A stretch of 42,980 nt of DNA from a virus (IMGVR_UViG_2778261642_000006); one strand, 5' to 3'. Counted from the first letter of the stretch, positions 1 to 42,980 are shown. A program made the numbers and translations. Notes: generated by a model from the letters alone, not told the origin.

Positions 1-1284
1 CTACTTCTTCGCCTCTGCAACCACTTTGCTACCCACGCCGCGGTTATTGTATTCCCACATGCGGTTGTAGTTAGTGTCATTCAGATTGCGCTGTACTTCG
101 TCGTTATCATCAACGCTGCCGGTGTTACCCGCAAATGGACGATTAGAGATCACCGCATCAGCCCACGGTTTGGCTGTGTTAAAACCTTCGTTGATGGCGC
201 TATCACGGATCACTACCTGACCGTTGGTATTGGCATCAACATCCAGCGAGCGGCCCAGTTGCGCCACGCCATCACCGGAAGCATTGAAACGGCTGTTTAC
301 GGCGAGGAAACCGTAGTAAATGTTGGACAGCGTAGCCGGTGCAAACACATACGCTTCTTGCTGGGTACGGGAGTTCACCACGCGGAATTCGGTGTTATCG
401 AACACCACTGCGCCGCGACCAGAAACGATATCCACATCCCCTTCAATATAGCTGTTGGTCACCAGCGTACGTGGCTGACGATTCGTTTCCAGACGGTTCT
501 GCACACCGCTGTTGGTGACAAAGAAGGTGTTCTGACGACCGAGAATGTTGACGTTATTGATCTGCACTTTGTCGCCATCAGTACGCAGTGCCACCGCCGG
601 ATGGTTACCCGCATCTACGCTATCGCCCAGCGTGTTTTCGATGGTCAGGTTTTGCAGTTGCAGGCCATTGTTTTGTGACCAGAAGACCGCAGAGCAGAGA
701 ACACCGATACTGTCGCTGCGTTTACTCTGGCAGCTATCGTACATATACCACGCCGGTTTACCTGGCATATATTTGCCGCGCGGGTTGACGTCGTGACGCC
801 AGTCGGCAGGGCTCATGCCACCATCAAGGGAAAGCCCAATCTTCACATCAATCGGTTTTTCACCCGTACCGTACAGAGTAATTCCACCCGGAGCGGCAGG
901 GACATACACCGTTCCCTGATACTCACCAGGCATCACGGCAATATACTGGCGCTTGTTGGTACGCTTGATAATTGCCGCATCTACCGCCGCCTGAATCGTG
1001 GTATGCGTTACACCTTGAGTACCCGCCGGGCCGACAACAAAGTCAGGTTGCGCAGGCAGGGTAATCGGGGAAGGATTCCACGCTGCCGCACCTGGTGTCA
1101 GGGATGCAAAATAGTGTTGAGCATCGAAATTCTGCGCTTCTTTTGCCGACAGAATCGGGCGCGAAGAGGTACCAGGCGCGGTTTGATCAGAAGGACGTTG
1201 ATCGGGCGGTGTTGAGCTACAGGCGGTCAGCGTCACGCCAAAAGCCAATGCCAGCGCCAGACGGGAAACTGAAAATGTGTTCAC
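1..1284 (-). CDS. ybhC: Host lipoprotein YbhC-like (pectinesterase / acyl-CoA thioesterase family)
   Basis: 427-aa ORF with lipoprotein signal (LTACSS); recalled match to E. coli YbhC, the gene flanking attB-lambda; lies just outside the attL core. Confidence 0.85.
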   Translation of the reverse strand: MNTFSVSRLALALAFGVTLTACSSTPPDQRPSDQTAPGTSSRPILSAKEAQNFDAQHYFASLTPGAAAWNPSPITLPAQPDFVVGPAGTQGVTHTTIQAAVDAAIIKRTNKRQYIAVMPGEYQGTVYVPAAPGGITLYGTGEKPIDVKIGLSLDGGMSPADWRHDVNPRGKYMPGKPAWYMYDSCQSKRSDSIGVLCSAVFWSQNNGLQLQNLTIENTLGDSVDAGNHPAVALRTDGDKVQINNVNILGRQNTFFVTNSGVQNRLETNRQPRTLVTNSYIEGDVDIVSGRGAVVFDNTEFRVVNSRTQQEAYVFAPATLSNIYYGFLAVNSRFNASGDGVAQLGRSLDVDANTNGQVVIRDSAINEGFNTAKPWADAVISNRPFAGNTGSVDDNDEVQRNLNDTNYNRMWEYNNRGVGSKVVAEAKK

Positions 1285-4799: not shown

Positions 4800-5113
4800 T
4801 TGGCGGACTCCTGTGCTCCAAGTTTTGCCCATACTTCAAGGCTGTTATGCGAAATCAGCGCTTCGCGAACGCATGGCCTGTAGTAGTGATGGAAAGCGAA
4901 GGTCATGCCGATCTTTGTCGGGCGATTGTGTTTGCCAAGCAATCCCAGGCGAATACAGATAGTCGTTGCCGTGTAGCCAGAGTGATAGCCAGCAGCACGC
5001 TTCATGACTGTTTCTGCCAGAATGGTGCGGAAATCAGTGCGCCCGAAATTGGTACCTTCGAAAGCGGCGTTAACCACTTCGTCTGTAAGATGTGAATCAT
5101 CAACTATGCTCAT
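4796..5113 (-). CDS. Hypothetical protein
   Basis: 105 aa from [14 protein letters not shown]…; RBS GGGGGAAG; ATGA overlaps on both sides. Confidence 0.5.
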   Translation of the reverse strand: MSIVDDSHLTDEVVNAAFEGTNFGRTDFRTILAETVMKRAAGYHSGYTATTICIRLGLLGKHNRPTKIGMTFAFHHYYRPCVREALISHNSLEVWAKLGAQESAK

Positions 5114-5637
5114 ACCGCTTCCCCCTGACGAAGCTGGGCGGCGAACTCGTCGCATACGTGCGTTAAAGAGCAAATCTGGATAGCAGGATGCTCGCGCAAC
5201 AATTCAACACCCTGCGCCCGTACTTCAGCCAGGAAAGCATCGGTGGCCGGAGTTTCAGGAATCCGTCTCCTCATCAGTTCTATTGCATGATTGAACCCGA
5301 AATCTTCAGCAAGAGATACGTCATCCATATTGTCATTGTCGTCCTCAATATCCCGTGGTTCTGGAATTGCAGACTTTATTACCGCATTCTCCGCCGCTAG
5401 CGCCGAAAACTTCTCGTGTGCCAACTTAACAGCCGCATCAGCCTGCTTAATTGACTCAATCGCTTTCTGGTGGTCTTCGGACAGAGCCGAAATCTTGGCC
5501 TCCGCTTCAGCAAATTTACGCACCAGATATTCAGCGTTTGTTTCGTTAACCTTTAAATCTCGCGGGATGCATTTACCTTTCAGAAATCCATCCATCTCAA
5601 TTAGTGACATTTGTTTCATTTCTTCCCACTCCGCCAC
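5110..5637 (-). CDS. Ea22-like coiled-coil protein (start uncertain)
   Basis: 175-aa ORF; acidic coiled-coil sequence; several candidate start Mets near 5637. Confidence 0.5.
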
Positions 5638-5798
5638 ATCGCATTCAGATATTTGTTGTCATTAACAGAGCCGAAACTATTTCTCTTAAGCAATTCCTCT
5701 CTCGATGGCATTGGCTTTACGCGTTGGCGAATAATCATTTCTGCCGGAAGAATGCCGGGATTGTATGCAAGTCCTCTCATGGTAAATTCCTCAGTCAT
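5616..5798 (-). CDS. Hypothetical small protein
   Basis: 60 aa from [15 protein letters not shown]…; start overlaps the stop of the upstream gene. Confidence 0.35.
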
Positions 5799-6084
5799 TA
5801 CTGATAGCGCCATAGCGTGAGCGGTAATTACGCAGGCGCGGGTCAATTTCAGGGAAGTGGGTATATGTGGCTTTGCGGAATGGTCGGATTGATGTCTGGT
5901 AAATTCGCTCGCGTTCTTCTTTCTCTGCAAGCCATATACAATGGCGAAATTCCTTTTCCTCTTTCGTTTCCTGCGGTAGCGACATTATCCGGTCGTAGTT
6001 TTTCCTGAATTTATCCAGCACCTCCGATACGGAATTGCCGGAACAGCGGCGCGCGTCATCCGCACCATACAGAGGCGCTGGCAT
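5791..6084 (-). CDS. Hypothetical protein
   Basis: 97-aa ORF with AGGAG RBS 7 nt upstream. Confidence 0.5.
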
Positions 6085-6097
6085 GATTTTCTCCTGA

Positions 6098-6604
6098 TTA
6101 AATAGCGTGAATAGCGTGACGAGGGAAGGGGAGAGTTACTGGTGCAAAGGGTATATCGTCGTCAAAATCCATCGGAGGTTCGTTGTGTTGTGCTGGTGAT
6201 GATTGCTGCTGTGGCTTCTGTGATTGCCTGCTGGCTGCTTGTTGTTTGCTGTCGCCAATGCCGCCAAGCATTTGCATCACGCCATTAATTCCGACATGAA
6301 CCTCGGTTGTGTAACGGTCTTGCCCTGACTGGTCTTTCCACTTTCTGGTTCTCAGCATTCCCTCGAAATAAATCTGATCACCTTTTTTCACATACTGCCC
6401 CACGACCTCAGCCAGTTTCCCGGATACAGCAACACGATGCCATTCAGTCAATTCCTTTTGCTCGCCAGTATTTTTATCTCGCCATTGTTCTGATGTGGCT
6501 ATTGTCAGGTTAGCGAACGCTGTTCCTGATGGTGAGTATCGAACTTCCGGGTCTTGTCCTACCCGACCAAGGATTATCACCTTATTTATCCCGCGAGAAC
6601 TCAT
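6098..6604 (-). CDS. ssb: Single-stranded DNA-binding protein
   Basis: [44 protein letters not shown]… OB-fold; Gln/Pro-rich tail ending DDDIPF; RBS GAGGTGGAG. Confidence 0.9.
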
Positions 6605-7068
6605 TTGCTCCACCTCTTGCCAGTTTTTATGTTGCTTATAATTGATTGAGATACACCCATGTCTTTTGCTATCTTGTACTGACTCTCTTTTTCAGAGAGT
6701 CTTTTCCTAATTTCTATAACCTGCCACTCTGTTAATTTTGCACCATGATGAGCATGACCTTTCTTGGCTCCACGATGCCTTCCTTTTGCTATCTTGTCGT
6801 CCATGTTTTCTTGCGCGCTACCTAAAAAGAGATGTTCAGGATTAACGCAGCATGGGTTATCGCATTTGTGGCAAACCATCTTCCCAGATGGAATGGGGGA
6901 GTGATAAAGCTCAAAAGCAACCCGATGAGAAAGCATTGTTACGCCAAAGGCTACAAATTTTGTGTATCCTCCTTTGTTTTTTGAATAGGTAGACTCCCAG
7001 CAACCTGTTGTTTCATTAACTTTGTAGCTGGACTCGAATCTTTTAATAATTCCGTCCAAGTGAGACAT
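6601..7068 (-). CDS. HNH endonuclease
   Basis: 155 aa; Cys/His-rich HNH-like core (…[26 protein letters not shown]…); sits between recombinase and ssb. Confidence 0.75.
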
Positions 7069-7875: not shown

Positions 7876-8034
7876 TTATGGCGATACAAGAGAGCTTTCT
7901 GCGTGTACATGCGTCTCTGTAACTTGCTCTCCTTCACTGTGGTTGCAAGTGACATGAATATCTCCTTCGTTACCGATTAATTCTTTCATCTGACGAATGA
8001 ATTCTTCGTCTGACCAGTTATCTGTAAAACTCAT
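7876..8034 (-). CDS. Hypothetical small protein at the kil position
   Basis: 52 aa from MSFTDNWSDEEF…; start overlaps the cIII-like stop (ATGA); position only. Confidence 0.4.
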   Translation of the reverse strand: MSFTDNWSDEEFIRQMKELIGNEGDIHVTCNHSEGEQVTETHVHAESSLVSP

Positions 8035-16224: not shown

Positions 16225-16354
16225 GCGGGCTTTAACGTGCGCTAACTGCGGTCAGAAGCTGCATGTGCTGGAAGTTCACGTGTGCTCCGATTGCTGCGCA
16301 GAACTGATGAGCGATCCGAATAGCTCGATGCACGAGGAAGAAGACGATGGCTAA
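16178..16354 (+). CDS. ninF: NinF
   Basis: 58 aa [66 protein letters not shown]; matches recalled lambda NinF. Confidence 0.75.
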   Translation: MLIPSQSIQYQKESVERALTCANCGQKLHVLEVHVCSDCCAELMSDPNSSMHEEEDDG

Positions 16355-16913
16355 ACCAGCGCGAAGACGATGTAACCGTAAAAGAGAAGATTTAACTGTT
16401 AAAAGGATATTTGAGTTACTAAGTTTCGATAAATCTACCGGGGTATTTAGATGGAAAGTTCCCACTCAGGGAAGGATAGCATTAAATAGTGTTGCTGGAA
16501 CTTTTGATTCCAACGGTTATTCAATGATCATGATAGATGGGCGTAGATATAAAACTCACATCTTAGTTTTTTACATAACTCATAATCGCTGGCCTGCTGG
16601 TCAAATTGACCACGTTAATGGAATTAGGACCGACAATAGGCCAGAAAATTTAAGAGAATGCCTGCCAATAGAAAATTCAAGAAATATAAGGATCCGAAAG
16701 AACAGCAAATCAGGTTGCAGAGGAGTTACTTGGCACAAACGACAGAAAAAATGGAATGTTAGGCTAGGTTTCCATGGCAAGAGTAAACACTTCGGATGCT
16801 TTGATGATCTGGAGTTAGCGGTACTAGTTGCTGAAGAAGCCCGAGATAAGTATTACGGTGATTTTTCCGGCAACGAAAGGAGCACTTATGCGAATCTATC
16901 GAAGGAAATGTAA
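16347..16913 (+). CDS. HNH endonuclease with AP2-like DNA-binding domain, apparently inserted at the ninG 5' end
   Basis: Begins MAKPARRRC (recalled NinG N-terminus) then HNH motifs (…[18 protein letters not shown]…) and AP2-like segment (…[31 protein letters not shown]…). Confidence 0.75.
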
Positions 16914-17693: not shown

Positions 17694-18342
17694 TGGCAGC
17701 AAATACCGAAATGTTTGGGTAGTTGGCGATCTGCACGGATGCTACACGAACCTGATGAAAAAACTGGAGACGATAGGATTCGACACCAAAAAAGACCTGC
17801 TTATCTCGGTGGGCGATTTGGTTGATCGCGGTACAGAGAACGTCGAATGTCTGGAATTAATCACATTCCCCTGGTTCCGAGCTGTACGTGGAAACCATGA
17901 GCAAATGATGATTGATGGCTTATCAGAGCGTGGAAACGTCAATCACTGGCTGTTTAATGGCGGTGGCTGGTTCTTTAATCTCGATTACGACAAAGAAATT
18001 CTGGCTAAAGCTCTTGCCCATAAAGCAGATGAACTTCCGTTAATCATCGAACTGGTGAGCGAAGGTAAAAAATATGTCATCTGCCACGCCGATTATCCCT
18101 GTGACGAATACGAGTTTGGAAAGCCAGTTGATCATCAGCAGGTAATCTGGAACCGCGAACGAATCAGCAACTCACAAGACGGGATCGTGAAAGAAATCAA
18201 AGGAGCGGACACGTTCATCTTTGGTCATACGCCAGCAGTGAAACCACTCAAGTTTGCCAACCAGATGTATATCGATACCGGCGCAGTGTTCTGCGGAAAC
18301 CTCACATTGATTCAGGTACAGGGAGAAGGCGCATGGGCATAA
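17671..18342 (+). CDS. ninI: Ser/Thr protein phosphatase (NinI, lambda PPase-like)
   Basis: From [28 protein letters not shown]…; metallophosphatase motifs GDLHG, GDLVDRG, GNHE. Confidence 0.9.
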
Positions 18343-18851
18343 GAGAACTAAACCTCACCAAAGAGCAGCACGAGTGGCTGAATGGCTGGCTTGAACTGTG
18401 GGGAGCATGGGTTTATTCAGGTCGTCTGGAAAAGCGCATGAGCAGCGTAATAGCTAAGTTCATGGAGAGCGTAGAGCCGGGAAGAGTTATGACAAGGCCA
18501 ATGTGTAATGATGATGATGGAATGTTGATTTCTCAGGTCGTCGATTCCGTCATGTACATTGACAAGAAAGCCTTTGGCATCCTCCTCAGCTACTACGCTC
18601 ATGGTTCATCTAAGCGAGCAATTGCATCCTACTATCACGAGACTGCAAAGCCACGCAAGATGTGTGGGCGTGGTGGCGAGGGATGGAGAAAACCTTCACT
18701 GGCAACCTGTAGAAACGAAATTGACGATATCCTGAAAGCGTCATTATTTGTTTTGTACCAACCAATGAAAAATGCTTTCAAAATGCGTAAACGTGTTGAG
18801 AAAGTTAAGCATGTTGCTGTTAAAAGTCTTGACATGCAATTAGCCATTTAG
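18333..18851 (+). CDS. Q: Late-gene antiterminator Q (non-lambda Q family)
   Basis: 172 aa; directly upstream of pR'-like promoter and tR'; composition resembles the Q family of phage 21/82 type; mainly positional. Confidence 0.6.
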
Positions 18852-18858
18852 CCATAAT
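18829..18858 (+). promoter_or_regulatory. Late promoter pR'-like (TTGACA, 17-18 nt spacer, CATAAT)
   Basis: gtcTTGACAtgcaattagccatttagcCATAATat at the 3' end of Q, ~45 nt upstream of the tR' hairpin. Confidence 0.6.
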
Positions 18859-18898
18859 ATTCACATATGCTGCTGCTTTTGCATTCAGCAACCATCAC

Positions 18899-18924
18899 AA
18901 GCCCACCTCCTGTGGGCTTTTTTG
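18899..18924 (+). terminator. tR'-like intrinsic terminator
   Basis: AAGCCCAC-ctcct-GTGGGCTT followed by TTTTTTGC. Confidence 0.75.
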
Positions 18925-19045
18925 CATTCGCGTGCAATCAAAACAAGAGTCTTAGTGATATGGGCCTGAGATATGGTGGTGGAAACATCGCTCCGCTCTT
19001 GGCTGTCATATCTACGCGAACAGGCTCTATCCCTAAGGTAAAGCG

Positions 19046-19558
19046 ATGAAAGAAATAAAATTAACGCCAGAAATGGTGCTTTCTGTTGTTGATTACAATC
19101 CATCGTCAGGCGACTTTCACTGGAGATGGAGGCAGGGGAGAGAGAGGACCACTTTGACATGGAACTCTCGTTTTGCTTTCAAGAAATGCTCATCAATAAA
19201 TTCTGATGGGTATTTAATGATTATGATTAATGGTAAAGCATACCCTGCTCACAGACTGGCATGGTTGATTGTTTATGGCACCATGCCCGATGGTTTTATT
19301 GATCACATCAACAGGGTAAGAACAGATAACCGGATATCAAATCTTCGTCTTGTCACTCATTCCGAAAATATGCAAAACAGGAAAATTCAGAAGAATAATA
19401 AATCTGGATACCGTGGCGTGTCTTGGGATGCTAAGTACGGGAAATGGAGAGCAAGAATTAATGCGTCTGGAAAGTGTATTAACCTTGGATACCATGACAC
19501 TGCCGAACTTGCCGCTGCGGCTTTTGAGGCAGCCAGAATGAAATATCATACCGTTTAA
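19046..19558 (+). CDS. HNH endonuclease with AP2-like domain (paralogue of 16347..16913)
   Basis: 170 aa; shares HNH block (…IDHINRVRTDNRISNLR…) and AP2-like block (…SGYRGVSWDAKYGKWRARINASGKCINLGYH…) with the ninG-associated copy. Confidence 0.8.
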   Translation: MKEIKLTPEMVLSVVDYNPSSGDFHWRWRQGRERTTLTWNSRFAFKKCSSINSDGYLMIMINGKAYPAHRLAWLIVYGTMPDGFIDHINRVRTDNRISNLRLVTHSENMQNRKIQKNNKSGYRGVSWDAKYGKWRARINASGKCINLGYHDTAELAAAAFEAARMKYHTV

Positions 19559-19612
19559 AGATGTAAGCTGCCGTTAGTGACTCTTAAGTTGCAACGGTGG
19601 CTTTTTTTATTT

Positions 19613-19687
19613 GGGTCAGTCGTATAAAGGTCATTACGGAAGGCTGTTAACCTTCTTATCGTGGTTCGAGTCCACGCTGTCCCGCCA
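19613..19687 (+). tRNA. tRNA-like gene, anticodon GUU (Asn) by manual folding
   Basis: Acceptor GGGTCAG/CTGTCCC (1 mismatch), weak D-stem, anticodon arm GAAGG-CTGTTAA-CCTTC, T-arm CGTGG-TTCGAGT-CCACG, discriminator G, CCA. Confidence 0.5.
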
Positions 19688-19692
19688 AATAT

Positions 19693-19768
19693 GCTGGTTT
19701 AGCTCCAATGGTAGAGCAGTCGCCTTGTAAGCGAATGGGTAGCGGTTCAAGTCCGTTAACCAGCACCA
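19693..19768 (+). tRNA. tRNA, anticodon UGU (Thr) by manual folding
   Basis: 76 nt; acceptor GCTGGTT/AACCAGC, D-arm GCTC…GAGC, anticodon loop CTTGTAA, T-loop TTCAAGT, discriminator A, CCA. Confidence 0.6.
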
Positions 19769-20011
19769 TAACTGAGCCGTAGCCACTGGCTATCCTGAAT
19801 TCATCAGTGATAGTTATGCTGCGGCCTTCTACACATGACCATCGTGAAAGCGGGTGGCAAGAGGCTGCGCTAACAACCTCCTGCCGTTTTGCCCGTGCAT
19901 ATCGGTCACGAACAAATCTGATTACTAAACACAGTAGCCTGGATTTGTTCTATCAGTAATCGACCTTATTCCTAATTAAATAGAGCAAATCCCCTTATTG
20001 GGGGGTAAGAC

Positions 20012-20335
20012 ATGAAGATGCCAGAAAAACATGACCTGTTAGCCGCCATTCTCGCGGCAAAGGAACAAGGCATCGGGGCAATCCTTGCGTTTGCAATGGC
20101 GTACCTTCGCGGCAGATACAATGGTGGTGCGTTTACAAAAACAGTAATCGACGCAACGATGTGCGCCATTATCGCCTGGTTCATTCGTGACCTTCTCGAC
20201 TTCGCCGGACTAAGTAGCAATCTCGCTTATATAACGAGCGTGTTCATCGGCTACATCGGTACTGACTCGATTGGTTCGCTTATCAAACGCTTCGCTGCTA
20301 AAAAAGCCGGAGTAGAAGATGGTGGAAATCAATAA
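20012..20335 (+). CDS. S: Holin S (lambda S107/S105 dual start)
   Basis: [34 protein letters not shown]… essentially identical to recalled lambda S. Confidence 0.95.
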
Positions 20336-20795
20336 TCAACGTAAGGCGTTCCTCGATATGCTGGCGTGGTCAGAGGGAACTGATAACGGACGTCAGAAAA
20401 CCAGAAATCATGGTTATGACGTCATTGTAGGTGGTGAGCTATTCACTGATTACTCCGATCACCCTCGTAAACTTGTCACGCTAAACCCCAAACTCAAATC
20501 AACAGCAGCCGGACGCTACCAGCTTCTTTCCCGTTGGTGGGATGCCTATCGTAAGCAGCTTGGCCTGAAAGACTTCTCTCCGAAAAGCCAGGACGCTGTG
20601 GCACTGCAACAGATTAAAGAGCGTGGCGCTTTACCGATGATTGATCGCGGTGATATCCGTCAGGCAATCGACCGTTGCAGCAATATCTGGGCTTCACTGC
20701 CGGGCGCTGGTTATGGTCAGTTCGAGCATAAGGCTGACAACCTGATTGCAAAATTCAAAGAAGCAGGCGGAACGGTCAGAGAGATTGAGGTATGA
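20319..20795 (+). CDS. R: Endolysin R (lytic transglycosylase)
   Basis: [51 protein letters not shown]… matches recalled lambda R. Confidence 0.95.
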
Positions 20796-21259
20796 GCAGA
20801 GTCACCGCGATTATCTCCGCTCTGGTTATCTGCATCATCGTCTGCCTGTCGTGGGTTGTTAATCATTACCGTGATAACGCCATCGCCTACAAGGAGCAGC
20901 GCGATAAAAAAGTCAGAGAGCTGAAGCAGGCGACTGCCACCATTACTGACATGCAGCAGCGCCAGCGCGATGCTGATGCACTCGATGCTAAATACACGAA
21001 GGAGTTAGCTGATGCGAAAGCTGAAAATGATGCTCTTCGGCGCAAGCTTGATAATGGTGGCAGGGTGCTCGTCAAAGGAAAATGCCCTGTGCCATCCTCA
21101 GACGAAACCTCCAGCGCCTCCGGCATGGGCAATGATGCCACCGTCGAACTCTCTCCAGTTGCTGGACGAAACGTTCTCGGTATCCGGGACGGAATTATCC
21201 GCGACCAAACAGCACTGAGAACGCTTCAGGAGTACATCAGGACGCAATGCCTTCGATGA
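20792..21259 (+). CDS. Rz: Spanin inner-membrane subunit Rz
   Basis: [34 protein letters not shown]… matches recalled lambda Rz N-terminus; C-terminus diverges. Confidence 0.9.
21012..21218 (+). CDS. Rz1: Spanin outer-membrane lipoprotein Rz1 (embedded in Rz, +1 frame)
   Basis: [21 protein letters not shown]… lipobox followed by proline-rich region, entirely within Rz. Confidence 0.8.
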
Positions 21260-34314: not shown

Positions 34315-36482
34315 TGGCTAAAGCATGGAAAGATGTTATCGCCTCTCCACAGTATCAGGCGTTAACTGAAGAACAGAAAGCACAGGCTCAAGCGCAATAT
34401 TTTGATGAGGTTGTTGCCCCTAAGGCTGGTGACAAATGGGCTGAAGCAAGAGATCAGTTTTATGCAGCATACCCTCCGCCTCAGCAGCAGAAAGAAGAAC
34501 CATCATTGATGCAACAAGCTGGTGATTGGCTCACAGGCGGTCAAAGTGCAGGGCAAATTGCAGAGCAGGCTGGTCGTGGTCTGGTAAACATACCATTTGA
34601 CGTATTGCAGGGTGGCGCAAGTCTGATTAATGCAATCAGTCAGGGGCTTGGTGGGCCCAAGGTTTTGGATGATGTCTATCGTCCAGTCGATCGACCGACA
34701 GACCCTTACGCGCAAGCCGGTGAAACAATTGGTGGGTATCTCCTGCCAATTGGCACAGCGGCAAAAGCTGCTGGAGCGCCAGCAAAGCTCGCTGGAGATA
34801 TCAGTTCCGCAGGAAACATGATTGCAGGTTCTCTTGCTGATGCTGCAAATCAGGAGGGTGATTTTGCACAAAATGCTGCCATTAACGGTGGTATCAATAT
34901 TGGTGCTCAAGGCGTTCTTTCAGGTGTCGGGCGCGTTATTGCGCCAAGGGTTTCACAGGCTCTTGGTGGTGCAGCACTGAATTCTGCTAATGATGTTTCG
35001 AAAATGGCAAAGTCAGGTACAGGAAGAGAGATTATTGCCAGACAGTCAGCTAACGTGTCAGACGAAATAGCAAAAGCAGCAGATACTGCTGGAATAGATA
35101 TCAACGCATTAACTCCTGGCATGAGATCAGGTAGTCGTGGTCTTGCTCAGGCGGAGGGGATTCTGGCGTCAAAGCCCGGAATTACACAGGATGCACACAC
35201 CAAAGCATTCAGTGAAATAGAGTCGAAATTTAACTCAGCATTGGATGAGTTTGGGGCTGAAGCAGGAACTGCATCAGAAAAAAGTGCAGCCATAAAACAG
35301 AGGGTTTTGGCAAGCATTGATAAAATGAAAAATTCAGAAAAGGCCGCATGGGATAGCGTCCGCTCCACGATGCCTGACGCAAAGGCCAGAATGTCAAACC
35401 TGAACGCTACAATTCAGGGTGATATTTTGGCTGGCATGCCGCTAACTCCTGAGATGAAACAATTCGCATCTGCTTATGCTAAAACTGGTAAAAAAGGAAT
35501 CACGTTTGATGCCATGAAGGCATGGCGAAGTAAACTTGCTGACGCAGAGCAGAAGTATATAAGGTCTGGTGAGGCAAATACGGCAAGGCGCATGGCTGAG
35601 CTTCGTGATGCAGCAACGGAAGATATGCGCATAATGGCTCAAAATGGCGGTTTTCTTGATGACTGGCAAAAAGCTAATGACCTGTCAAAGGCAAGATTTA
35701 CAGCACAAGAACAGGCTGAAGCAGCGTTTGGCAGAGACCTTGCAACTGATCAGTTGGTAAATAATGGCTCTAAGGCGTTACAGGGCTCAGCAAAAAGTGG
35801 AACAGGTCAGTTCCATAAAATAATAAGCGCCCTACCTGAGTCGGAACGCGCGCCAGCAATTGCATCAATATTACAAGATGCAATGTCGCAAGGGGTACGC
35901 GGAGGTAAGTCTGAAGAGGCTGGAATTAAGCATATCGCGACTATTCTTACCCCACAAAACGTGAAGGCAATTAGTCGATATTCTCCAGAACTTGGCAGGA
36001 TTACAAGTTCATACGGAGAACTTGCAAGAGCAGCAACAAAGCCACTTCGATATGTTGAACAGACAGGGCGATCTATGCCAGCCATTAGCACTCTTGAGAA
36101 TGGCCTTCATCCAGTTTTAGAGAGCGCATTGTCTGGCGCTTTTAGAACTACTGGCACTATCGCAGGGTTCTCTGGAGGAGGCGTTATTGGAGCAATAGCG
36201 GGTGGCGCTGCAGGTGGAGCAATTGATGCAATGGCAAAAGGAGCGATAGCGAAATTATCCGCAACTAGAAGCGGTCGTTACGCTATTGAAAAGGCTGTTC
36301 AAGAGGCAACAAAGGCAGTTAAGGTTGGGGCAAGTGATGGTGCATTAGCGGCGGCGGAACGCAGATTTATGGCAAATAAGGCCGCCGTAAAAGCAATACG
36401 CGAGGCACTAGGAAACGAAGAGTTCCAGCGTTTAGCAAGGGCTGGAATTGTGGCATCGCTAAGCGGAATGGCACAGGAGTAA
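34314..36482 (+). CDS. Ejection (internal virion) protein, gp16 position
   Basis: 722 aa, Ala/Gly-rich with Gly-rich C-terminal segment; order as P22 gp16. Confidence 0.6.
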
Positions 36483-37898: not shown

Positions 37899-40550
37899 AT
37901 GACAGACATTACAGCCAATGTTGTAGTGAGTATGCCTTCGCAACTCTTCACTATGGCGCGTTCTTTTAAAGCCGTAGCCAATGGCAAAATTTATATCGGT
38001 AAAATTGACACTGACCCGGTAAATCCTGAAAACCGGATTCAGGTTTATGTGGAGAACGAAGACGGCTCTCACGTTCCTGTATCGCAGCCAATCATCATTA
38101 ACGCTGCCGGATATCCTGTATATAACGGACAGATTGCCAAATTCGTTACTGTACAGGGCCATTCTATGGCTGTTTATGATGCGTATGGTTCGCAGCAGTT
38201 CTATTTTCCAAACATTCTGAAATATGATCCTGATCAGTTTAAACAAGAACTAGAGAATAAATTTAACAATGGTTCAACTCCATCAATTATAAATTATAAG
38301 TACGGTCTTCCAGAAGAAGTAGACGGAGCAACACAAAGGACGCTACAGGATAAACTTGATGACCATGTAAATGTTCGCGATTTTGGTGCAAAAGGGGATG
38401 GCATTACTGACGATACAGACGCAATAACAAGTGCCATCATTTACTGCGCATCTAACGGAAAACGCCTGAAGTGGGATTCTGGTGTGTATTTGATTAGCCG
38501 CATAAAATGCGGCGGGGATAATTATAACTATGACTGGGTAGCTGATGGCAAGGTTGTCTTAAAGTCAACCGCAAAAGAGCCTCTTGGCCCAAACTGGATT
38601 GATGATTATTTCATAAGACTCGAAGGTGGAGATGCCACGCCAATTGACTATAATTCAACAATAAATCCTGGTGACACATCAATATCAATTAACTCAGCAT
38701 ACTCTGTTGATGCAGGCGATATAATTATGATTCATGGCAATCGCTTAATTCAGACAGATAATAGAGGACAGGCTTGTGAAGGTGAAATGCATGTTGTTAC
38801 TGCTTTTGATAATGCAACAAAAAAAGCGGAGATATCAGGTGCATTTTATTTTTTCTACTCTGCGAGCAATGATTACTCAACGACCGTAACAGCATCTGTA
38901 TCCGGAGGTGAATTCTCATTTGGTAATGATGCAACATTAACAAAACAATACAATCAGGTAAAAGTAACAGGTGTCACCGGAGCTAACGCCGGAACATCAA
39001 GATACATAACTCATTGGGATTACGACACTAAAACAGCAAAATTTGAATATGCTCAGGGACCATTCCCGTTTAAACCATCTGTTGGAGACGTGTTTAAAAT
39101 CACAAGAAAGGCAAATATATATAAAAGAAAACCATGCTACGGCAGAATTGTTGGTGATTTCAATTTTGAAAGACCTGTCACGCAGAACGCATCTCCTGGT
39201 GATTTGGGGTTCCGTGGTCTTGTGATAGATGGCGCTGTTGATATGCATATAGAAGGAATAAAACTAATCGGCTTTTCAGAAACTGGAATTTTTCTTGAGT
39301 CATGCTACAGAACGAAAATAATAGAACCATATATTGAATACTCAAACCGTGCATATGATTTAACAAACGGCACTGGTTATGGTGTTGAAATATACAATAG
39401 CAGCTATTGCACAGTCGTGGATATGATAGCATTTGCTTGCAGGAGGGGGCTTGATGTAAGCGGGACTCAAATGGTATCACTGTATAATAACATTATAAAT
39501 CCAACGATGATGGGTGGTGGAACTGCATATGATGGAGTTAAATTTTTCCCTGATGGCGATACAAGAAATTCATGTTGCGGTGGACACGGCCCATCATACG
39601 AAACAACTTTTACAGGCGGCAATTCAGTCAATTTGTATTATGCTGGTGTAATACGCGGATTAAATGAAGTGTATGATGGAATGAACGCCAGGGGATTTAG
39701 CGGCCCGGCTCCTTTTTTTGTAAGATATAGTGGTGGTGGGTTCACGATTCAGAACTGTAATTATATTGATGGTTTTACTGAGATGTCTTTGCCATACAAC
39801 TTGAGGTACAAACCTGTGAATGCAACTCAACGTAATCACAGACCTCTTGTTTTTATTGAAACAACTCTGGCACAGACAGACAGAAACTCTTACTATAAAG
39901 AACTTCCTGTTGTTATTAAAAATAATACCGCAAGGACTGTTCTCAAGGGCTTTTTACGTTTTGAGGTTAATGATGGCCTCACCCCTCTAATCCAAAATAT
40001 TTATTTTGGTGGTAATTTATGTATGGCGAACCCAGAAACATCAGACTCTGTATCAGGGCAAACAGAGGCAGTAATGGTTTATTCATCTGTTCCTGGTGCA
40101 ATAATTGTTCGAAATTTCCATGATCTTGGCGGTAACAGAATTGTTCCTGTTGGAGCAGGATACAGATACTGCGGTATGTTCAACACGCCAGATGGAATAG
40201 CAGGAACAATAGTTCAACCAGACGGAAAATATCTAATAACACTTGAAGCCAACAAATCTACAAGTATCCTTGTTGGTGGATACGTACCATGTGTTCGCCT
40301 TGATATGCACGACATACTTGATATTCATGGGGTAATTGCAGTTGGTGTTCTTATTCATCGTGGTGAGGCAATTGATTTTTCTCCTTTAAAAGAAATTAAT
40401 AAGCAAAATGTTGTATTGAAAACCGGAGTTCTTTCAGATAATGATGGTGATGAAAATAACTTAAATATTTCGTTTGACTTTGCAACCATATATTTAAGCA
40501 ACAAGATGCCAAATAAGATTCAACTATCTATTGAAGTATCAGGAGTGTAA
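37899..40550 (+). CDS. Tailspike protein: P22-type head-binding domain plus long divergent beta-helix receptor-binding domain
   Basis: N-terminus [59 protein letters not shown]… matches recalled P22 gp9 N-terminus; 883 aa total. Confidence 0.9.
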
Positions 40551-41264: not shown

Positions 41265-41741
41265 TTAACTAAACATCGCAGTAATCGAGGCACTCGCCAG
41301 AGAGTGAAAATGAACGTTAAACCCGACCATCGCGCCGCTGGCACCTTCATCGACATCAATACGTTCTACATCCAGCGCGTGAACGGTAAAAATGTAGCGA
41401 TGGGTTTCGCCTTTCGGCGGCGCTGCGCCATCGTACCCGGTTTTACCAAAGTCGGTACGCGTCTGCAAAACGCCGTCTGGCATAGCTACCAGACCAGAGC
41501 CAAACCCTTGCGGTAATACGCGGGTATCAGCGGGTAAATTAACAACTACCCAGTGCCACCAGCCGGAGCCGGTTGGCGCATCCGGGTCATAGCAGGTGAC
41601 AACAAAACTTTTCGTTCCCACAGGAACATCATCCCACGCCAGATGCGGTGAAATATTATCGCCATCGTAACCCATGCCGTTAAAGACATGACGATGCGGC
41701 AGCTTATCGCCATCGCGCAGATCGTTACTGATGAGTTTCAT
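41265..41741 (-). CDS. ybhB: Host PEBP/UPF0098-family protein YbhB-like
   Basis: 158 aa; PEBP-like motifs (…CYDPDAPTGSGWWHWVVVNLP…); recalled as the gene on the bio side of attB-lambda. Confidence 0.85.
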   Translation of the reverse strand: MKLISNDLRDGDKLPHRHVFNGMGYDGDNISPHLAWDDVPVGTKSFVVTCYDPDAPTGSGWWHWVVVNLPADTRVLPQGFGSGLVAMPDGVLQTRTDFGKTGYDGAAPPKGETHRYIFTVHALDVERIDVDEGASGAMVGFNVHFHSLASASITAMFS

Positions 41742-41849: not shown

Positions 41850-42980
41850 ATGAAACGCGCATATAAATACCGGTTTTACCCGACAACTGAGCAGGCTGAG
41901 CTTTTAGCTCAGACGTTTGGCTGTGTGCGCTTCGTCTACAATTCCATCCTTCGTTGGCGTACCGATGCGTACTACGAGCGAAAAGAAAAGATCGGTTATC
42001 TACAGGCCAACGCTCGCCTTACGGCGCTCAAAAAAGAGCCTGAATACATATGGCTGAATGATGTTTCCTGCGTTCCCCTCCAGCAGTCGTTGCGCCACCA
42101 ACAAGCCGCCTTTGCTAACTTCTTTGCCGGACGAGCTGCATATCCGGCTTTCAAAAGCAAACGGCACAAACAGGTGGCTGAGTTCACTGCCAGCGCGTTT
42201 AAACACCGTGACGGCGAGTTGTATATAGCAAAGAGCAAGTCGCCGCTGGATGTTCGCTGGAGTCGAGAATTACCATCTGCGCCGTCAACCGTTACCATTT
42301 CCAGAGATAGCGCTGGCAGGTACTTTGTTTCCTGCCTGTGTGAGTTTGAACCTGTATCAATGCCTGTTACCGCTAAAACGGTCGGCATTGATGTGGGCTT
42401 AAAAGATTTATTCGTCACCGATACCGGATTCAAAACCGACAATCCCCGCCACACCGCTAAATATGCGAAGCGATTAACGCTGCTACAGCGACGTTTAAGC
42501 AGGAAGCAAAAAGGCTCAAGAAACCGTATTAAAGCCCGCTTAAAGGTCGCCCGACTCCACGCGAAAATCGCCGATTGCCGGATGGACAATCTGCACAAGT
42601 TGTCCCGCAAACTGATTAACGAAAACCAAGTTGTTTGCGTCGAATCCCTCAAGGTGAAAAACATGATCCGCAACCCGAAGCTGTCTAAAGCAATAGCTGA
42701 CGCAGGCTGGAGCGAACTTGTTCGCCAGCTCCAGTACAAAGGCAAATGGGCCGGGCGGTCAGTGGTCGCCATTGACCAGTATTTACCGTCCTCAAAATGC
42801 TGTAGTTGCTGCGGTTTCACCATGCAAAAAATGCCTCTTAATGTTCGTAAATGGCACTGCCCTGAATGCGGCGCAGACCATGATCGCGACATTAACGCGG
42901 CACGTAATATTAAAGCTGCCGGGCTGGCAGTGTTAGCCCACGGAGAGCCTGTAAACCCTGAATCGCAGCACGCGGCTTAG
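41850..42980 (+). CDS. tnpB: IS200/IS605-family TnpB (OrfB) RuvC-like nuclease
   Basis: 376 aa; N-terminus MKRAYKYRFYPTTEQ; RuvC-like motifs (GIDVGLKDLFV, …DHDRDINAARNI) and zinc finger (CCSCCG…CPECG); stop codon is the last 3 nt of the window. Confidence 0.85.
   Translation: MKRAYKYRFYPTTEQAELLAQTFGCVRFVYNSILRWRTDAYYERKEKIGYLQANARLTALKKEPEYIWLNDVSCVPLQQSLRHQQAAFANFFAGRAAYPAFKSKRHKQVAEFTASAFKHRDGELYIAKSKSPLDVRWSRELPSAPSTVTISRDSAGRYFVSCLCEFEPVSMPVTAKTVGIDVGLKDLFVTDTGFKTDNPRHTAKYAKRLTLLQRRLSRKQKGSRNRIKARLKVARLHAKIADCRMDNLHKLSRKLINENQVVCVESLKVKNMIRNPKLSKAIADAGWSELVRQLQYKGKWAGRSVVAIDQYLPSSKCCSCCGFTMQKMPLNVRKWHCPECGADHDRDINAARNIKAAGLAVLAHGEPVNPESQHAA

What the first reader, a model, noticed from the sequence alone, without database searches (positions are those of the whole stretch)
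19613..19768. Two tRNA-like genes between tR' and the lysis genes
Manual folding gives a standard tRNA with anticodon UGU (Thr) and a second, less canonical tRNA-like sequence with anticodon GUU (Asn; one acceptor mismatch, weak D-stem). Phage tRNAs at this late-leader position often compensate for codon usage; the odd one may be degenerate or specialised.
Basis: seen in the sequence. Interest (0 to 1): 0.4.

Follow-up and report, generated by a model that had tools for sequence, protein, structure and literature searches.

The report
Known phage tRNA-Asn/tRNA-Thr late-leader cassette
The two sequences are real, intact tRNA genes (Asn-GUU and Thr-UGU) identical to a pair long annotated in phage 21, Sf6 and HK446, so the finding is ordinary, but their anticodons match host tRNAs cut by the PARIS and P2-OLD anti-phage nucleases, which probably explains why phages keep them.

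Summary
Observation confirmed. ARAGORN and Rfam both call tRNA-Asn(GUU) at 19613-19687 and tRNA-Thr(UGU) at 19693-19768, directly after a phage-21-type tR' terminator and upstream of lambda-type S/R/Rz.

The pair is 100% identical to annotated genes in phage 21, Sf6 and SfI, and to unannotated copies in HK446. The full cassette is in 344 of 5,426 complete E. coli genomes. It is already known.

The odd features are not decay. Diverged Klebsiella-phage copies keep them unchanged while the stems change by compensatory substitutions.

Codon compensation explains the pair only partly. ACA is 2.5-fold enriched but ranks sixth, Asn codons are barely enriched, and lambda has similar usage without the tRNAs. 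The top-ranked codons match the different cassette of Stx phage 933W.

The better fit is counter-defence.
- PARIS AriB cleaves host tRNA-Lys(UUU), Thr(UGU) and Asn(GUU). P2 OLD depletes Thr(UGU).
- Both window tRNAs are altered at the published AriB determinants (positions 39, 41 and 16).
- A 2026 preprint reports that the HK446 Thr(UGU) tRNA (gene identical to the window's) rescues OLD-sensitive phages.

The role of Asn is untested.

The parts
19613..19687 (+). tRNA-Asn, anticodon GUU, 75 nt with encoded CCA. Non-canonical features: U4:U69, C9, U13:U22, D-loop AAAGGUCA (no U16/U17), 4-nt variable loop. Positions 36-41 are UAACCU (host asnT: UAAUCC).
   Evidence: ARAGORN; Rfam 55.3 bits; positional parse; 100% identical to phage 21, Sf6, SfI and HK446; compensatory changes at pairs 6-67, 7-66 and 28-42 in Klebsiella phage copies.
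19693..19768 (+). tRNA-Thr, anticodon UGU, 76 nt with encoded CCA. It has C14 and a G27:A43 mismatch. Positions 36-41 are UAAGCG (host thrU: UAAUCA).
   Evidence: ARAGORN; Rfam 61.5 bits; MFE fold is the cloverleaf; 100% identical to HK446 35177-35252, phage 21, BTP1 and others; 6 pairs with double changes, reached by 1 of 500 shuffles (covariation score by 0 of 500).
19565..19612 (+). Phage-21-type tR' intrinsic terminator (hairpin 19565-19603 plus U-run). It directly abuts the 5' end of tRNA-Asn and is the left edge of the cassette.
   Evidence: Identical to the annotated phage 21 and Sf6 terminators; fold -20.2 kcal/mol, z -4.64.
18829..18858 (+). Late promoter pR' (-35 TTGACA at 18829-18834, -10 CATAAT at 18853-18858) with Sf6/21-type Q-binding repeats between the hexamers.
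   Evidence: Promoter scan, 11 of 12 matches; aligns to the annotated Sf6 and phage 21 pR'.
18333..18851 (+). Phage-21-type antiterminator Q, needed for transcription to pass the terminators and reach the tRNAs.
   Evidence: Pfam Phage_antitermQ, 90.8 bits; annotated homologues in Sf6 and HK629.
18859..19562 (+). About 700 bp inserted between pR' and tR', compared with phage 21 and Sf6. It carries an extra terminator-like hairpin (18899-18919) and an HNH_3 + AP2 endonuclease ORF (19046-19558). It is context, not part of the tRNA cassette.
   Evidence: Alignment A1; terminator scan and fold z -4.2; Pfam; shared with HK629, which lacks the tRNAs; with the tRNAs in 39 of 5,426 E. coli genomes.
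19770..20011 (+). Conserved lambda-like leader upstream of S, starting AACTGAGCCGTAGCC. It is the right edge of the cassette.
   Evidence: Alignment A3: homology to lambda and HK629 resumes here.
20012..21259 (+). Lambda-type lysis cassette: S (20012-20335), R (20319-20795), Rz (20792-21259) and the embedded Rz1 (21012-21218). It lies downstream of the tRNAs in the same late operon.
   Evidence: ORF list; homologues annotated in Sf6, HK629 and lambda.

Best explanation
These are two functional tRNA genes forming a small mobile cassette in the leader of the late operon.

Transcription (inferred). They are transcribed from pR' only when Q lets RNA polymerase read through tR'. The tRNAs are then cut out of the late transcript by the host tRNA-processing enzymes.

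Main benefit (inferred). [quoted passage not shown] Toprim-family abortive-infection tRNases cleave those host tRNAs: P2 OLD, and PARIS AriB carried on P2-like prophages and P4-like satellites. Late-gene translation can then continue.

Secondary benefit. Extra Thr(UGU) also helps to read the ACA codons that are over-represented in the phage.

Shown here: the genes are real, intact and under purifying selection. They are identical to the HK446 genes, and both differ from the host tRNAs at the published AriB determinants.

Shown by others: host Thr(UGU) and Asn(GUU) are AriB targets, Thr(UGU) is an OLD target, and the HK446 Thr(UGU) tRNA rescues OLD-sensitive phages in trans.

Inferred only: resistance of these particular tRNAs to cleavage, any role for tRNA-Asn, and benefit at native late expression.
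For: 1. The anticodons GUU and UGU are two of the three main AriB targets: Lys-UUU, Thr-UGU and Asn-GUU (PMC12409363). Thr-UGU is also depleted by P2 OLD (bioRxiv 10.64898/2026.07.10.737580).

2. AriB cleaves within U36-A-A-U39-C40|A41. U39->A abolishes cleavage, and A41->C and U16->C impair it. My numbering reproduces the paper's host motifs. The window Asn has C39/U41/A16 and the window Thr has G39/G41/A16, like the PARIS-resistant T5 Thr (G39) and T5 Asn (G39).

3. The HK446 Thr(UGU) tRNA, which restored plating of OLD-sensitive HK97 and HK542 in trans, comes from a gene 100% identical to the window's.

4. The OLD-sensitive phages lambda, HK97 and HK75 have no tRNAs in the regions scanned.

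5. The window prophage encodes an 88%-identical homologue of the OLD trigger Gp33 and a 99%-identical Abc2, but only a 47%-identical Oad2 homologue.

6. PARIS protects against lambda (PMC9122126).

7. Codon demand does not single out this pair. ACA ranks 6th, AAU 12th and AAC 29th. The top four codons (AGG, AGA, AUA, CGA) match the alternative 933W cassette instead: CAU, UCG, UCU.

8. Asn(GUU) and Thr(UGU) recur together in other small phage tRNA sets: P1, N4-like PMBT57 and Klebsiella lambdoid phages. The P1/PMBT57 Asn belongs to a different sequence family, 59% identical.

9. The odd features are conserved alongside compensatory stem changes.
Against: - There is no tRNA-Lys(UUU), the primary AriB target. 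Published rescue of T5 and T7 needed the Lys variant.
- OLD depletes five tRNAs and the cassette covers one. HK446 Thr alone did not rescue lambda or OLD toxicity in recB cells.
- Asn is not among the listed OLD targets.
- The preprint's own authors favour a lysogeny-related role, and HK446 also has the protein inhibitor Oad2.
- The tRNAs are made late, after the triggers act, and Q itself contains 1 ACA and 5 Asn codons.
- A non-U at position 39 could be a phylogenetic accident. P1's Asn keeps a host-like UAAUCA.
- ACA enrichment is a simpler explanation for Thr. The tailspike is very rich in both ACA (31.7 per 1000) and Asn (73.5 per 1000).
- There are no cleavage data for these two tRNAs.
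- I could not establish how common Asn and Thr are among phage tRNAs in general.
Confidence: 0.5

Rival explanations
1. Pure codon or amino-acid supply. The tRNAs simply raise the pools needed to translate phage genes whose codon usage differs from the host's, with no link to defence.
For: ACA is 2.55-fold enriched (15.7 vs 6.2 per 1000), and only one Thr(UGU) gene, thrU, appears in the K-12 region fetched. Total Asn codons are 47 vs 38 per 1000. The late tailspike has 28 ACA and 65 Asn codons in 884. The SfI authors reported the same ACA bias (PMC3636060).
Against: ACA ranks only 6th, AAU 12th and AAC 29th. The four most enriched codons are served by a different cassette in 933W. There is no late-gene excess: 16.4 vs 14.7 per 1000. 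Lambda has near-identical usage without the tRNAs. The host has four asn tRNA genes. The SfI authors found no bias for Asn and called its significance unclear. Codon supply does not explain the conserved non-canonical features or the altered positions 39, 41 and 16.
Confidence: 0.28
2. Compensation for a host tRNA gene disrupted by prophage integration, as suggested for HK446 in the OLD preprint.
For: HK446 and SfI integrate in thrW, a tRNA-Thr gene. The preprint's discussion raises this idea.
Against: This prophage sits between ybhC and ybhB, the lambda attachment site, which is not a tRNA gene. thrW is, from my own knowledge, the Thr(CGU) isoacceptor, not UGU, and HK446's attP carries the thrW-like segment. 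The cassette lies behind tR' in the late operon, so it should be largely silent in a lysogen. The idea does not explain Asn. From my own knowledge, phage 21 integrates in icd.
Confidence: 0.03
3. Decaying or neutral passengers. The odd tRNA-Asn is a pseudo-tRNA carried along by recombination of the flanks.
For: Asn has two stem mismatches and a short variable loop, and its MFE fold rearranges the D arm. In ST64T the second tRNA has decayed.
Against: Three compensatory double substitutions in Asn and two in the closely related Thr copies preserve the cloverleaf, while the odd positions stay invariant. By established knowledge of the synthetases, the identity elements are intact: GUU plus G73 for AsnRS, and G1-C72, C2-G71, G35 and U36 for ThrRS (sequence). 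The CCA ends are encoded. The Asn and Thr genes are each >=99% identical in 39 and 34 phage records respectively, spanning E. coli, Shigella and Salmonella phages.
Confidence: 0.04
4. RNA-processing punctuation. The tRNA structures mainly serve as RNase P and RNase E cleavage sites that detach the terminator leader from the lysis and structural mRNA and so tune its stability.
For: The tRNAs abut tR' with no spacer and sit in a long polycistronic leader.
Against: Lambda, HK97, HK75 and HK629 express the same lysis genes without them. This idea does not explain the conserved anticodons or identity elements, or the recurrence of the same two anticodons in unrelated phages.
Confidence: 0.05

Closest known systems
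Phage 21 / Sf6 / SfI / HK446 tRNA-Asn(GUU)-tRNA-Thr(UGU) late-leader pair
   Same: Both genes are 100% identical, in the same order, with a 5-nt spacer (one base differs) and the same position directly after tR'. They are annotated in phage 21, Sf6 and SfI.
   Different: The window has about 700 bp (an extra terminator and an HNH-AP2 ORF) inserted between pR' and tR'. HK446 has a lambda-type Q and tR', and phage 21 has a pinholin/SAR-endolysin lysis cassette. The HK446 record does not annotate either tRNA.
[quoted passage not shown]
   Same: Two of the three anticodons are the same. Position 39 is substituted in both tRNAs, and position 16 also differs from the host U16 that impairs AriB cleavage when mutated.
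   Different: There is no Lys tRNA. The sequences are only 62-66% identical to the T5 tRNAs. T5 carries about 24 tRNAs with their own promoters, whereas here there are two tRNAs behind a Q-dependent terminator. Resistance to AriB has not been tested for these.
Stx phage 933W ileZ-argN-argO cassette
   Same: It is also a small tRNA cassette between Q/pR'/tR' and the downstream late genes of a lambdoid phage.
   Different: Its anticodons are CAU (Ile2), UCG and UCU. These match the four most enriched codons here: AUA, CGA, AGA and AGG. It fits codon compensation, and it has its own putative promoter pT.
Phage P1 trnA(Asn)-trnT(Thr) pair
   Same: It is an adjacent Asn(GUU) then Thr(UGU) pair in a temperate coliphage, and its Thr also has G39.
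   Different: It lies in the C1-repressed ban operon, not the late leader. Its Asn is only 59% identical, belongs to another family (shared with N4-like PMBT57) and keeps a host-like UAAUCA. P1 also has tRNA-Ile(CAU).

Membership tests
Canonical elongator tRNA (Rfam RF00005) | Covariance-model score above the family's gathering threshold, matched over the full model | tested here: met
   55.3 bits (Asn) and 61.5 bits (Thr) against a gathering score of 29, model positions 1-71 of 71. ARAGORN calls both.
Canonical elongator tRNA (Rfam RF00005) | Four-helix cloverleaf maintained by selection (covariation) | tested here: met
   Asn: 3 pairs with changes on both sides and none in the slid controls (only 3 distinct sequences). 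Thr: 6 such pairs, 97% of cells paired, covariation score reached by 0 of 500 shuffles.
Canonical elongator tRNA (Rfam RF00005) | Universal tertiary nucleotides (U8, A14, G18-G19, U33, purine 37, T-loop UUCRA) and a 5-nt variable loop | tested here: inconclusive
   U8, G18-G19, U33, A37 and the T-loops UUCGA/UUCAA are present. But Thr has C14, and Asn has C9, U13:U22, U4:U69 and a 4-nt variable loop. These deviations are conserved in diverged copies.
tRNA-Asn (substrate of E. coli AsnRS) | Anticodon G34-U35-U36 and discriminator G73 (identity elements from established knowledge) | tested here: met
   Anticodon loop CUGUUAA and G73 followed by CCA. Aminoacylation itself cannot be tested here.
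tRNA-Thr (substrate of E. coli ThrRS) | G1-C72, C2-G71, G35 and U36 (identity elements from established knowledge) | tested here: met
   Acceptor GCUGGUU/AACCAGC, anticodon UGU, A73.
Phage-21-type late-leader tRNA cassette | Sequence identity and position directly after tR', upstream of the lysis genes | tested here: met
   Both tRNAs are 100% identical to phage 21, Sf6 and HK446. Junctions are at the tR' T-run and at AACTGAGCC.
Nuclease-resistant phage tRNA (counter-defence against PARIS AriB or P2 OLD) | Same anticodon as a host tRNA that the nuclease cleaves | tested here: met
   GUU and UGU. AriB targets are Lys-UUU, Thr-UGU and Asn-GUU. OLD targets include Thr-UGU.
Nuclease-resistant phage tRNA (counter-defence against PARIS AriB or P2 OLD) | Substitutions at experimentally defined recognition and cleavage positions (39, 41 and 16 for AriB; 27-29 for OLD) | tested here: met
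   Asn has C39, U41 and A16. Thr has G39, G41 and A16. Thr 27-31 is GUCGC with a G27:A43 mismatch, against host ACUGA.
Nuclease-resistant phage tRNA (counter-defence against PARIS AriB or P2 OLD) | The tRNA is not cleaved by the activated nuclease | not testable with these tools
   There are no data for these tRNAs. The preprint showed stability for the Bas32 Thr, not the HK446 Thr.
Nuclease-resistant phage tRNA (counter-defence against PARIS AriB or P2 OLD) | Expression rescues phage infection or cell growth when the defence is active | not testable with these tools
   Reported by others for the HK446 Thr(UGU) tRNA (gene identical to the window's) against OLD: HK97 and HK542 were rescued, lambda was not. 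Nothing has been reported for Asn, or for either tRNA against PARIS.
Codon-compensating phage tRNA | The cognate codon is strongly over-represented in the phage and the cognate host tRNA is scarce | tested here: inconclusive
   Thr: ACA is 2.55-fold enriched and thrU is the only Thr(UGU) gene in the region fetched, so the feature is met. Asn: AAC 1.06-fold, AAU 1.63-fold and four host genes, so it is not met. The pair does not match the top-ranked codons.

The most novel reading that the evidence does not exclude
The Asn(GUU)-Thr(UGU) pair is a dedicated two-tRNA counter-defence cassette of temperate enterobacterial phages against Toprim-family abortive-infection tRNases (P2 OLD, PARIS and their relatives). 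In this reading, the conserved non-canonical features of tRNA-Asn (U4:U69, C9, U13:U22, no U16/U17, 4-nt variable loop, C39) and of tRNA-Thr (C14, G27:A43, G39) are nuclease-evasion adaptations. Carriage of the cassette would then help to explain which lambdoid phages escape P2 and P4 exclusion. tRNA-Asn, which is unannotated in HK446 and was overlooked in the OLD preprint, would be a second active component.
Probability: 0.35. Interest if true: 0.5.

Novelty: already known. Interest (0 to 1): 0.3.

Why it matters
The genes themselves are old news. The open question is why small temperate phages keep exactly these two tRNAs. [quoted passage not shown]

The match between this pair and the target lists of PARIS and P2 OLD turns that into a direct experiment: delete or swap the cassette and plate on OLD+ and PARIS+ hosts. 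If the idea holds, a 156-base cassette present in about 6% of complete E. coli genomes would be a common anti-defence module. It would also matter for predicting the host range of temperate and engineered phages.

The analysis also makes one factual correction. HK446, described as encoding a single tRNA, carries both.

Tried and rejected
- Pseudo-tRNA or decay for Asn: rejected, because the oddities are conserved alongside compensatory changes.
- Integration compensation: rejected, because the prophage sits at the lambda attachment site between ybhC and ybhB.
- Late-gene-specific codon bias: not found, with ACA at 14.7 per 1000 in early genes and 16.4 in late genes.
- A separate promoter for the tRNAs: the scan found no sigma-70-like site between the HNH ORF and tRNA-Asn on the + strand. 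This is a weak negative.
- HK629 as a full match: it shares the HNH insertion but has no tRNAs.
- Whether Q avoids ACA and Asn codons: only a weak trend (1 ACA, and the lowest Asn density of the genes counted), not an absence.
- Literature search for base rates of Asn and Thr among phage tRNAs: it returned mostly mitochondrial-genome papers, and the 2026 codon-usage preprint gave no such table.
- Technical failures with no result.

Full report
**1. Observation**

ARAGORN finds exactly two tRNA genes in the window: tRNA-Asn (gtt) at 19613-19687 and tRNA-Thr (tgt) at 19693-19768, both on the + strand. Rfam's tRNA model scores them at 55.3 and 61.5 bits against a gathering score of 29, with E-values of 2.3e-9 and 4.7e-11.

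A parse by standard tRNA positions shows these features:
- Asn has U4:U69 and U13:U22 mismatches, C9, the D-loop AAAGGUCA and a 4-nt variable loop.
- Thr is closer to canonical, and its minimum-energy fold is the cloverleaf. But it has C14 instead of A14 and a G27:A43 mismatch.
- Both encode CCA.
- By established knowledge of the synthetases, both carry the expected identity elements. For AsnRS these are GUU plus G73. For ThrRS they are G1-C72, C2-G71, G35 and U36.

**2. Context**

The window is a P22-like/lambdoid prophage integrated between ybhC (1-933) and ybhB (41265-41741). That is the lambda attachment site. It is 100% identical to part of the E. coli YP3 chromosome.

Upstream of the tRNAs, in order:
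- a phage-21-type Q gene (18333-18851; Pfam);
- pR' (18829-18858);
- a terminator-like hairpin (18899-18919);
- an HNH_3 + AP2 endonuclease ORF (19046-19558);
- the phage-21-type tR' hairpin (19565-19603, z -4.6), which abuts tRNA-Asn.

Lambda-type S, R, Rz and Rz1 follow from 20012.

Compared with phage 21 and Sf6, where pR', tR' and tRNA-Asn are contiguous, the window has about 700 bp inserted between pR' and tR'. HK629 shares that insertion but has no tRNAs. The insertion together with the tRNAs occurs in 39 of 5,426 complete E. coli genomes.

**3. It is a known cassette**

- The 281-base region matches 95 phage records, 76 of them at 95% identity or more.
- Each tRNA is 100% identical to those of phage 21, Sf6, SfI, BTP1, HK446 and others.
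- Phage 21, Sf6 and SfI annotate them as tRNA-Asn and tRNA-Thr.
- The full module is in 344 of 5,426 complete E. coli genomes, where PGAP annotates it.

Alignment of five contexts shows a precise cassette. Its left edge is the T-run of tR', which is lambda-type in HK446 and 21-type here. Its right edge is AACTGAGCCGTAGCC upstream of S. The cassette replaces about 190 bp of unrelated DNA present in lambda and HK629.

**4. Functional, not decaying**

Klebsiella phage copies (Mulock, ST16-OXA48phi5.2) differ from the window by compensatory double substitutions. In Asn these are at pairs 6-67, 7-66 and 28-42. In Thr they are at 3-70 and 6-67. Every odd feature is retained.

When the more distant PMBT57 and P1 Thr genes are added, six pairs show double changes, a count reached by 1 of 500 shuffles; no shuffle reaches the observed covariation score. 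The Asn sample has only three distinct sequences, so its statistics are weak (23 of 500 shuffles). The slid-partner controls show no such changes.

**5.

I applied the same greedy ORF caller to the window, to 100 kb of E. coli K-12 and to lambda.

| Codon | Window (per 1000) | E. coli (per 1000) | Enrichment | Rank |
|---|---|---|---|---|
| ACA | 15.7 | 6.2 | 2.55x | 6th |
| AAU | 22.9 | 14.1 | 1.63x | 12th |
| AAC | 24.3 | 22.9 | 1.06x | 29th |

- ACA ranks behind AGG, AGA, AUA, CGA and UCA.
- Early and late genes do not differ in ACA (14.7 vs 16.4 per 1000).
- Lambda has no tRNAs yet has ACA at 13.8 and AAU at 19.2 per 1000.
- E. coli has four asn tRNA genes; thrU is the only Thr(UGU) gene in the region fetched.
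- The four most enriched codons are exactly those served by the different cassette at the same position in Stx phage 933W, whose anticodons are CAU (Ile2), UCG and UCU.

So codon supply is a reasonable partial explanation for Thr and a poor one for Asn. The SfI authors reached the same conclusion in 2013. One point in its favour is that the late tailspike is unusually rich in both ACA (31.7 per 1000) and Asn codons (73.5 per 1000).

**6. The counter-defence lead**

Belukhina et al. 2025 (PMC12409363) show the following for the PARIS effector AriB:
- It cuts between positions 40 and 41, within U36-A-A-U39-C40|A41.
- U39->A abolishes cleavage. A41->C and U16->C impair it.
- The T5 Lys, Thr and Asn variants together neutralise PARIS.

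My numbering reproduces their host motifs: thrU is UAAUCA and asnT is UAAUCC. The window tRNAs read UAACCU (Asn) and UAAGCG (Thr), and both have A at position 16. The T5, P1 and N4-like Thr genes and the T5 and N4-like Asn genes also lack U39. P1's Asn is the exception.

A July 2026 preprint (10.64898/2026.07.10.737580) reports the following for P2 OLD, the classical anti-lambda exclusion system:
- It is a tRNase that depletes Thr(UGU), Gly(UCC), fMet, Val(UAC) and Pro(UGG).
- The Thr(UGU) tRNA of HK446, expressed in trans, restores plating of OLD-sensitive HK97 and HK542.
- That tRNA does not rescue lambda.

HK446's Thr gene is 100% identical to the window's. HK446 also carries the identical Asn gene, which is unannotated in the record. 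The preprint describes HK446 as encoding a single tRNA.

Further supporting points:
- Lambda, HK97 and HK75 lack tRNAs in the regions I scanned.
- PARIS also protects against lambda.
- The window prophage has an 88%-identical homologue of the OLD trigger Gp33 and a 99%-identical Abc2.
- Its Oad2 homologue is only 47% identical. The preprint found that a 54%-identical homologue was not protective.

**7. Recurrence**

Asn(GUU) and Thr(UGU) occur together in several other small phage tRNA sets:
- P1: Asn, Thr, Ile;
- N4-like PMBT57: Asn, Ser, Thr, Pro;
- Klebsiella lambdoid phages: Asn, Phe, Thr, Arg.

The P1/PMBT57 Asn is a different sequence family, 59% identical to the window's. The pairing has therefore been assembled more than once.

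If two anticodons were drawn at random from about 40, the chance that both fall among the three main AriB targets is about 3 in 780. This is my own post hoc calculation. It ignores the unknown base rates of phage tRNA types, which I could not obtain.

**8. Weighing**

The identification as a known, functional tRNA cassette is secure. The claim that its main benefit is replacement of nuclease-cleaved host tRNAs is an inference. It is reasonably supported for Thr, because others obtained experimental rescue with the tRNA of an identical gene. It is only circumstantial for Asn.

Against it:
- There is no Lys(UUU) tRNA.
- OLD has four other targets.
- The tRNA alone did not rescue lambda.
- Expression is late and Q-dependent.
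- ACA enrichment offers a simpler account of Thr.

The integration-compensation idea fails for this element. The attachment site is not a tRNA gene, and thrW encodes (from my own knowledge) a different isoacceptor.

**9. Verdict**

The feature is real and was correctly read, but it is already known. Interest is modest. It comes from the testable link to PARIS and OLD and from the overlooked tRNA-Asn in HK446.

Noticed in passing
window 18859-19562: About 700 bp are inserted between pR' and the 21-type tR', compared with phage 21 and Sf6. The insert carries an extra intrinsic-terminator-like hairpin (18899-18919) and an HNH_3 + AP2 endonuclease ORF (19046-19558). It is flanked by similar short sequences (ATATGCTGC on the left, GTAAGCTGC on the right). 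Late transcription must therefore pass two terminators. HK629 has the same insert without the tRNAs, and 39 of 5,426 E. coli genomes have the insert with the tRNAs.
   Followed up: partly
window 16347-16913 and 6601-7068: There are two more HNH endonuclease ORFs. One is a second HNH_3 + AP2 (weak) ORF in the nin region. The other is an HNH ORF between erf and ssb in the recombination operon. That makes three free-standing HNH genes in one 40-kb prophage.
   Followed up: partly
L006 (HK446, NC_019714.1) 1421-1495 and 1501-1576, which is record 35097-35171 and 35177-35252: [quoted passage not shown] Neither is annotated in the RefSeq record, and the 2026 OLD preprint describes HK446 as encoding a single Thr(UGU) tRNA.
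   Followed up: yes
L020 (ST64T, AY052766.1) about 981-1056: After an intact tRNA-Asn, ST64T has a tRNA-like remnant. It shares the Thr acceptor 5' strand, with a closely related 3' strand, but its anticodon arm has collapsed to CCUUC-CUAA-GAAGG. ARAGORN does not call it. So Asn is the member retained in this Salmonella P22-like phage.
   Followed up: partly
L014 (Mulock) 1201-1520; L016 (ST16-OXA48phi5.2) 1039-1358; L015 (2b LV-2017): Klebsiella lambdoid phages have an expanded array at the same position between Q and the holin gene: Asn(GUU)-Phe(GAA)-Thr(UGU)-Arg(UCU). Phage 2b LV-2017 has two different Asn(GUU) genes plus Arg(UCU). One of those Asn genes has a U:C mismatch at pair 4-69.
   Followed up: partly
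window 7879-8034 (-), 5791-6084 (-), 5110-5619 (-): The prophage has homologues of three HK446 proteins: the OLD trigger Gp33 (88% identity), Abc2 anti-RecBCD (99%) and the anti-OLD protein Oad2 (47% over 133 of 175 residues).
   Followed up: partly
window 1-933, 41265-41741, 41850-42980: The window ends in host DNA: ybhC on the left and ybhB on the right. The prophage therefore occupies the lambda attachment site although it has P22-like virion genes (tailspike at 37899-40550). An InsQ/TnpB-family RNA-guided endonuclease ORF lies beyond ybhB and runs off the end of the window.
   Followed up: partly
L017 (N4-like PMBT57, MG770228.1) 1027-1705: A virulent N4-like phage carries Asn(GUU), Ser(UGA), Thr(UGU) and Pro(UGG). 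Thr(UGU) and Pro(UGG) are both reported OLD targets, and Pro(UGG) also gave probable AriB cleavage products. Its Asn shares acceptor and T stems with P1's trnA.
   Followed up: no
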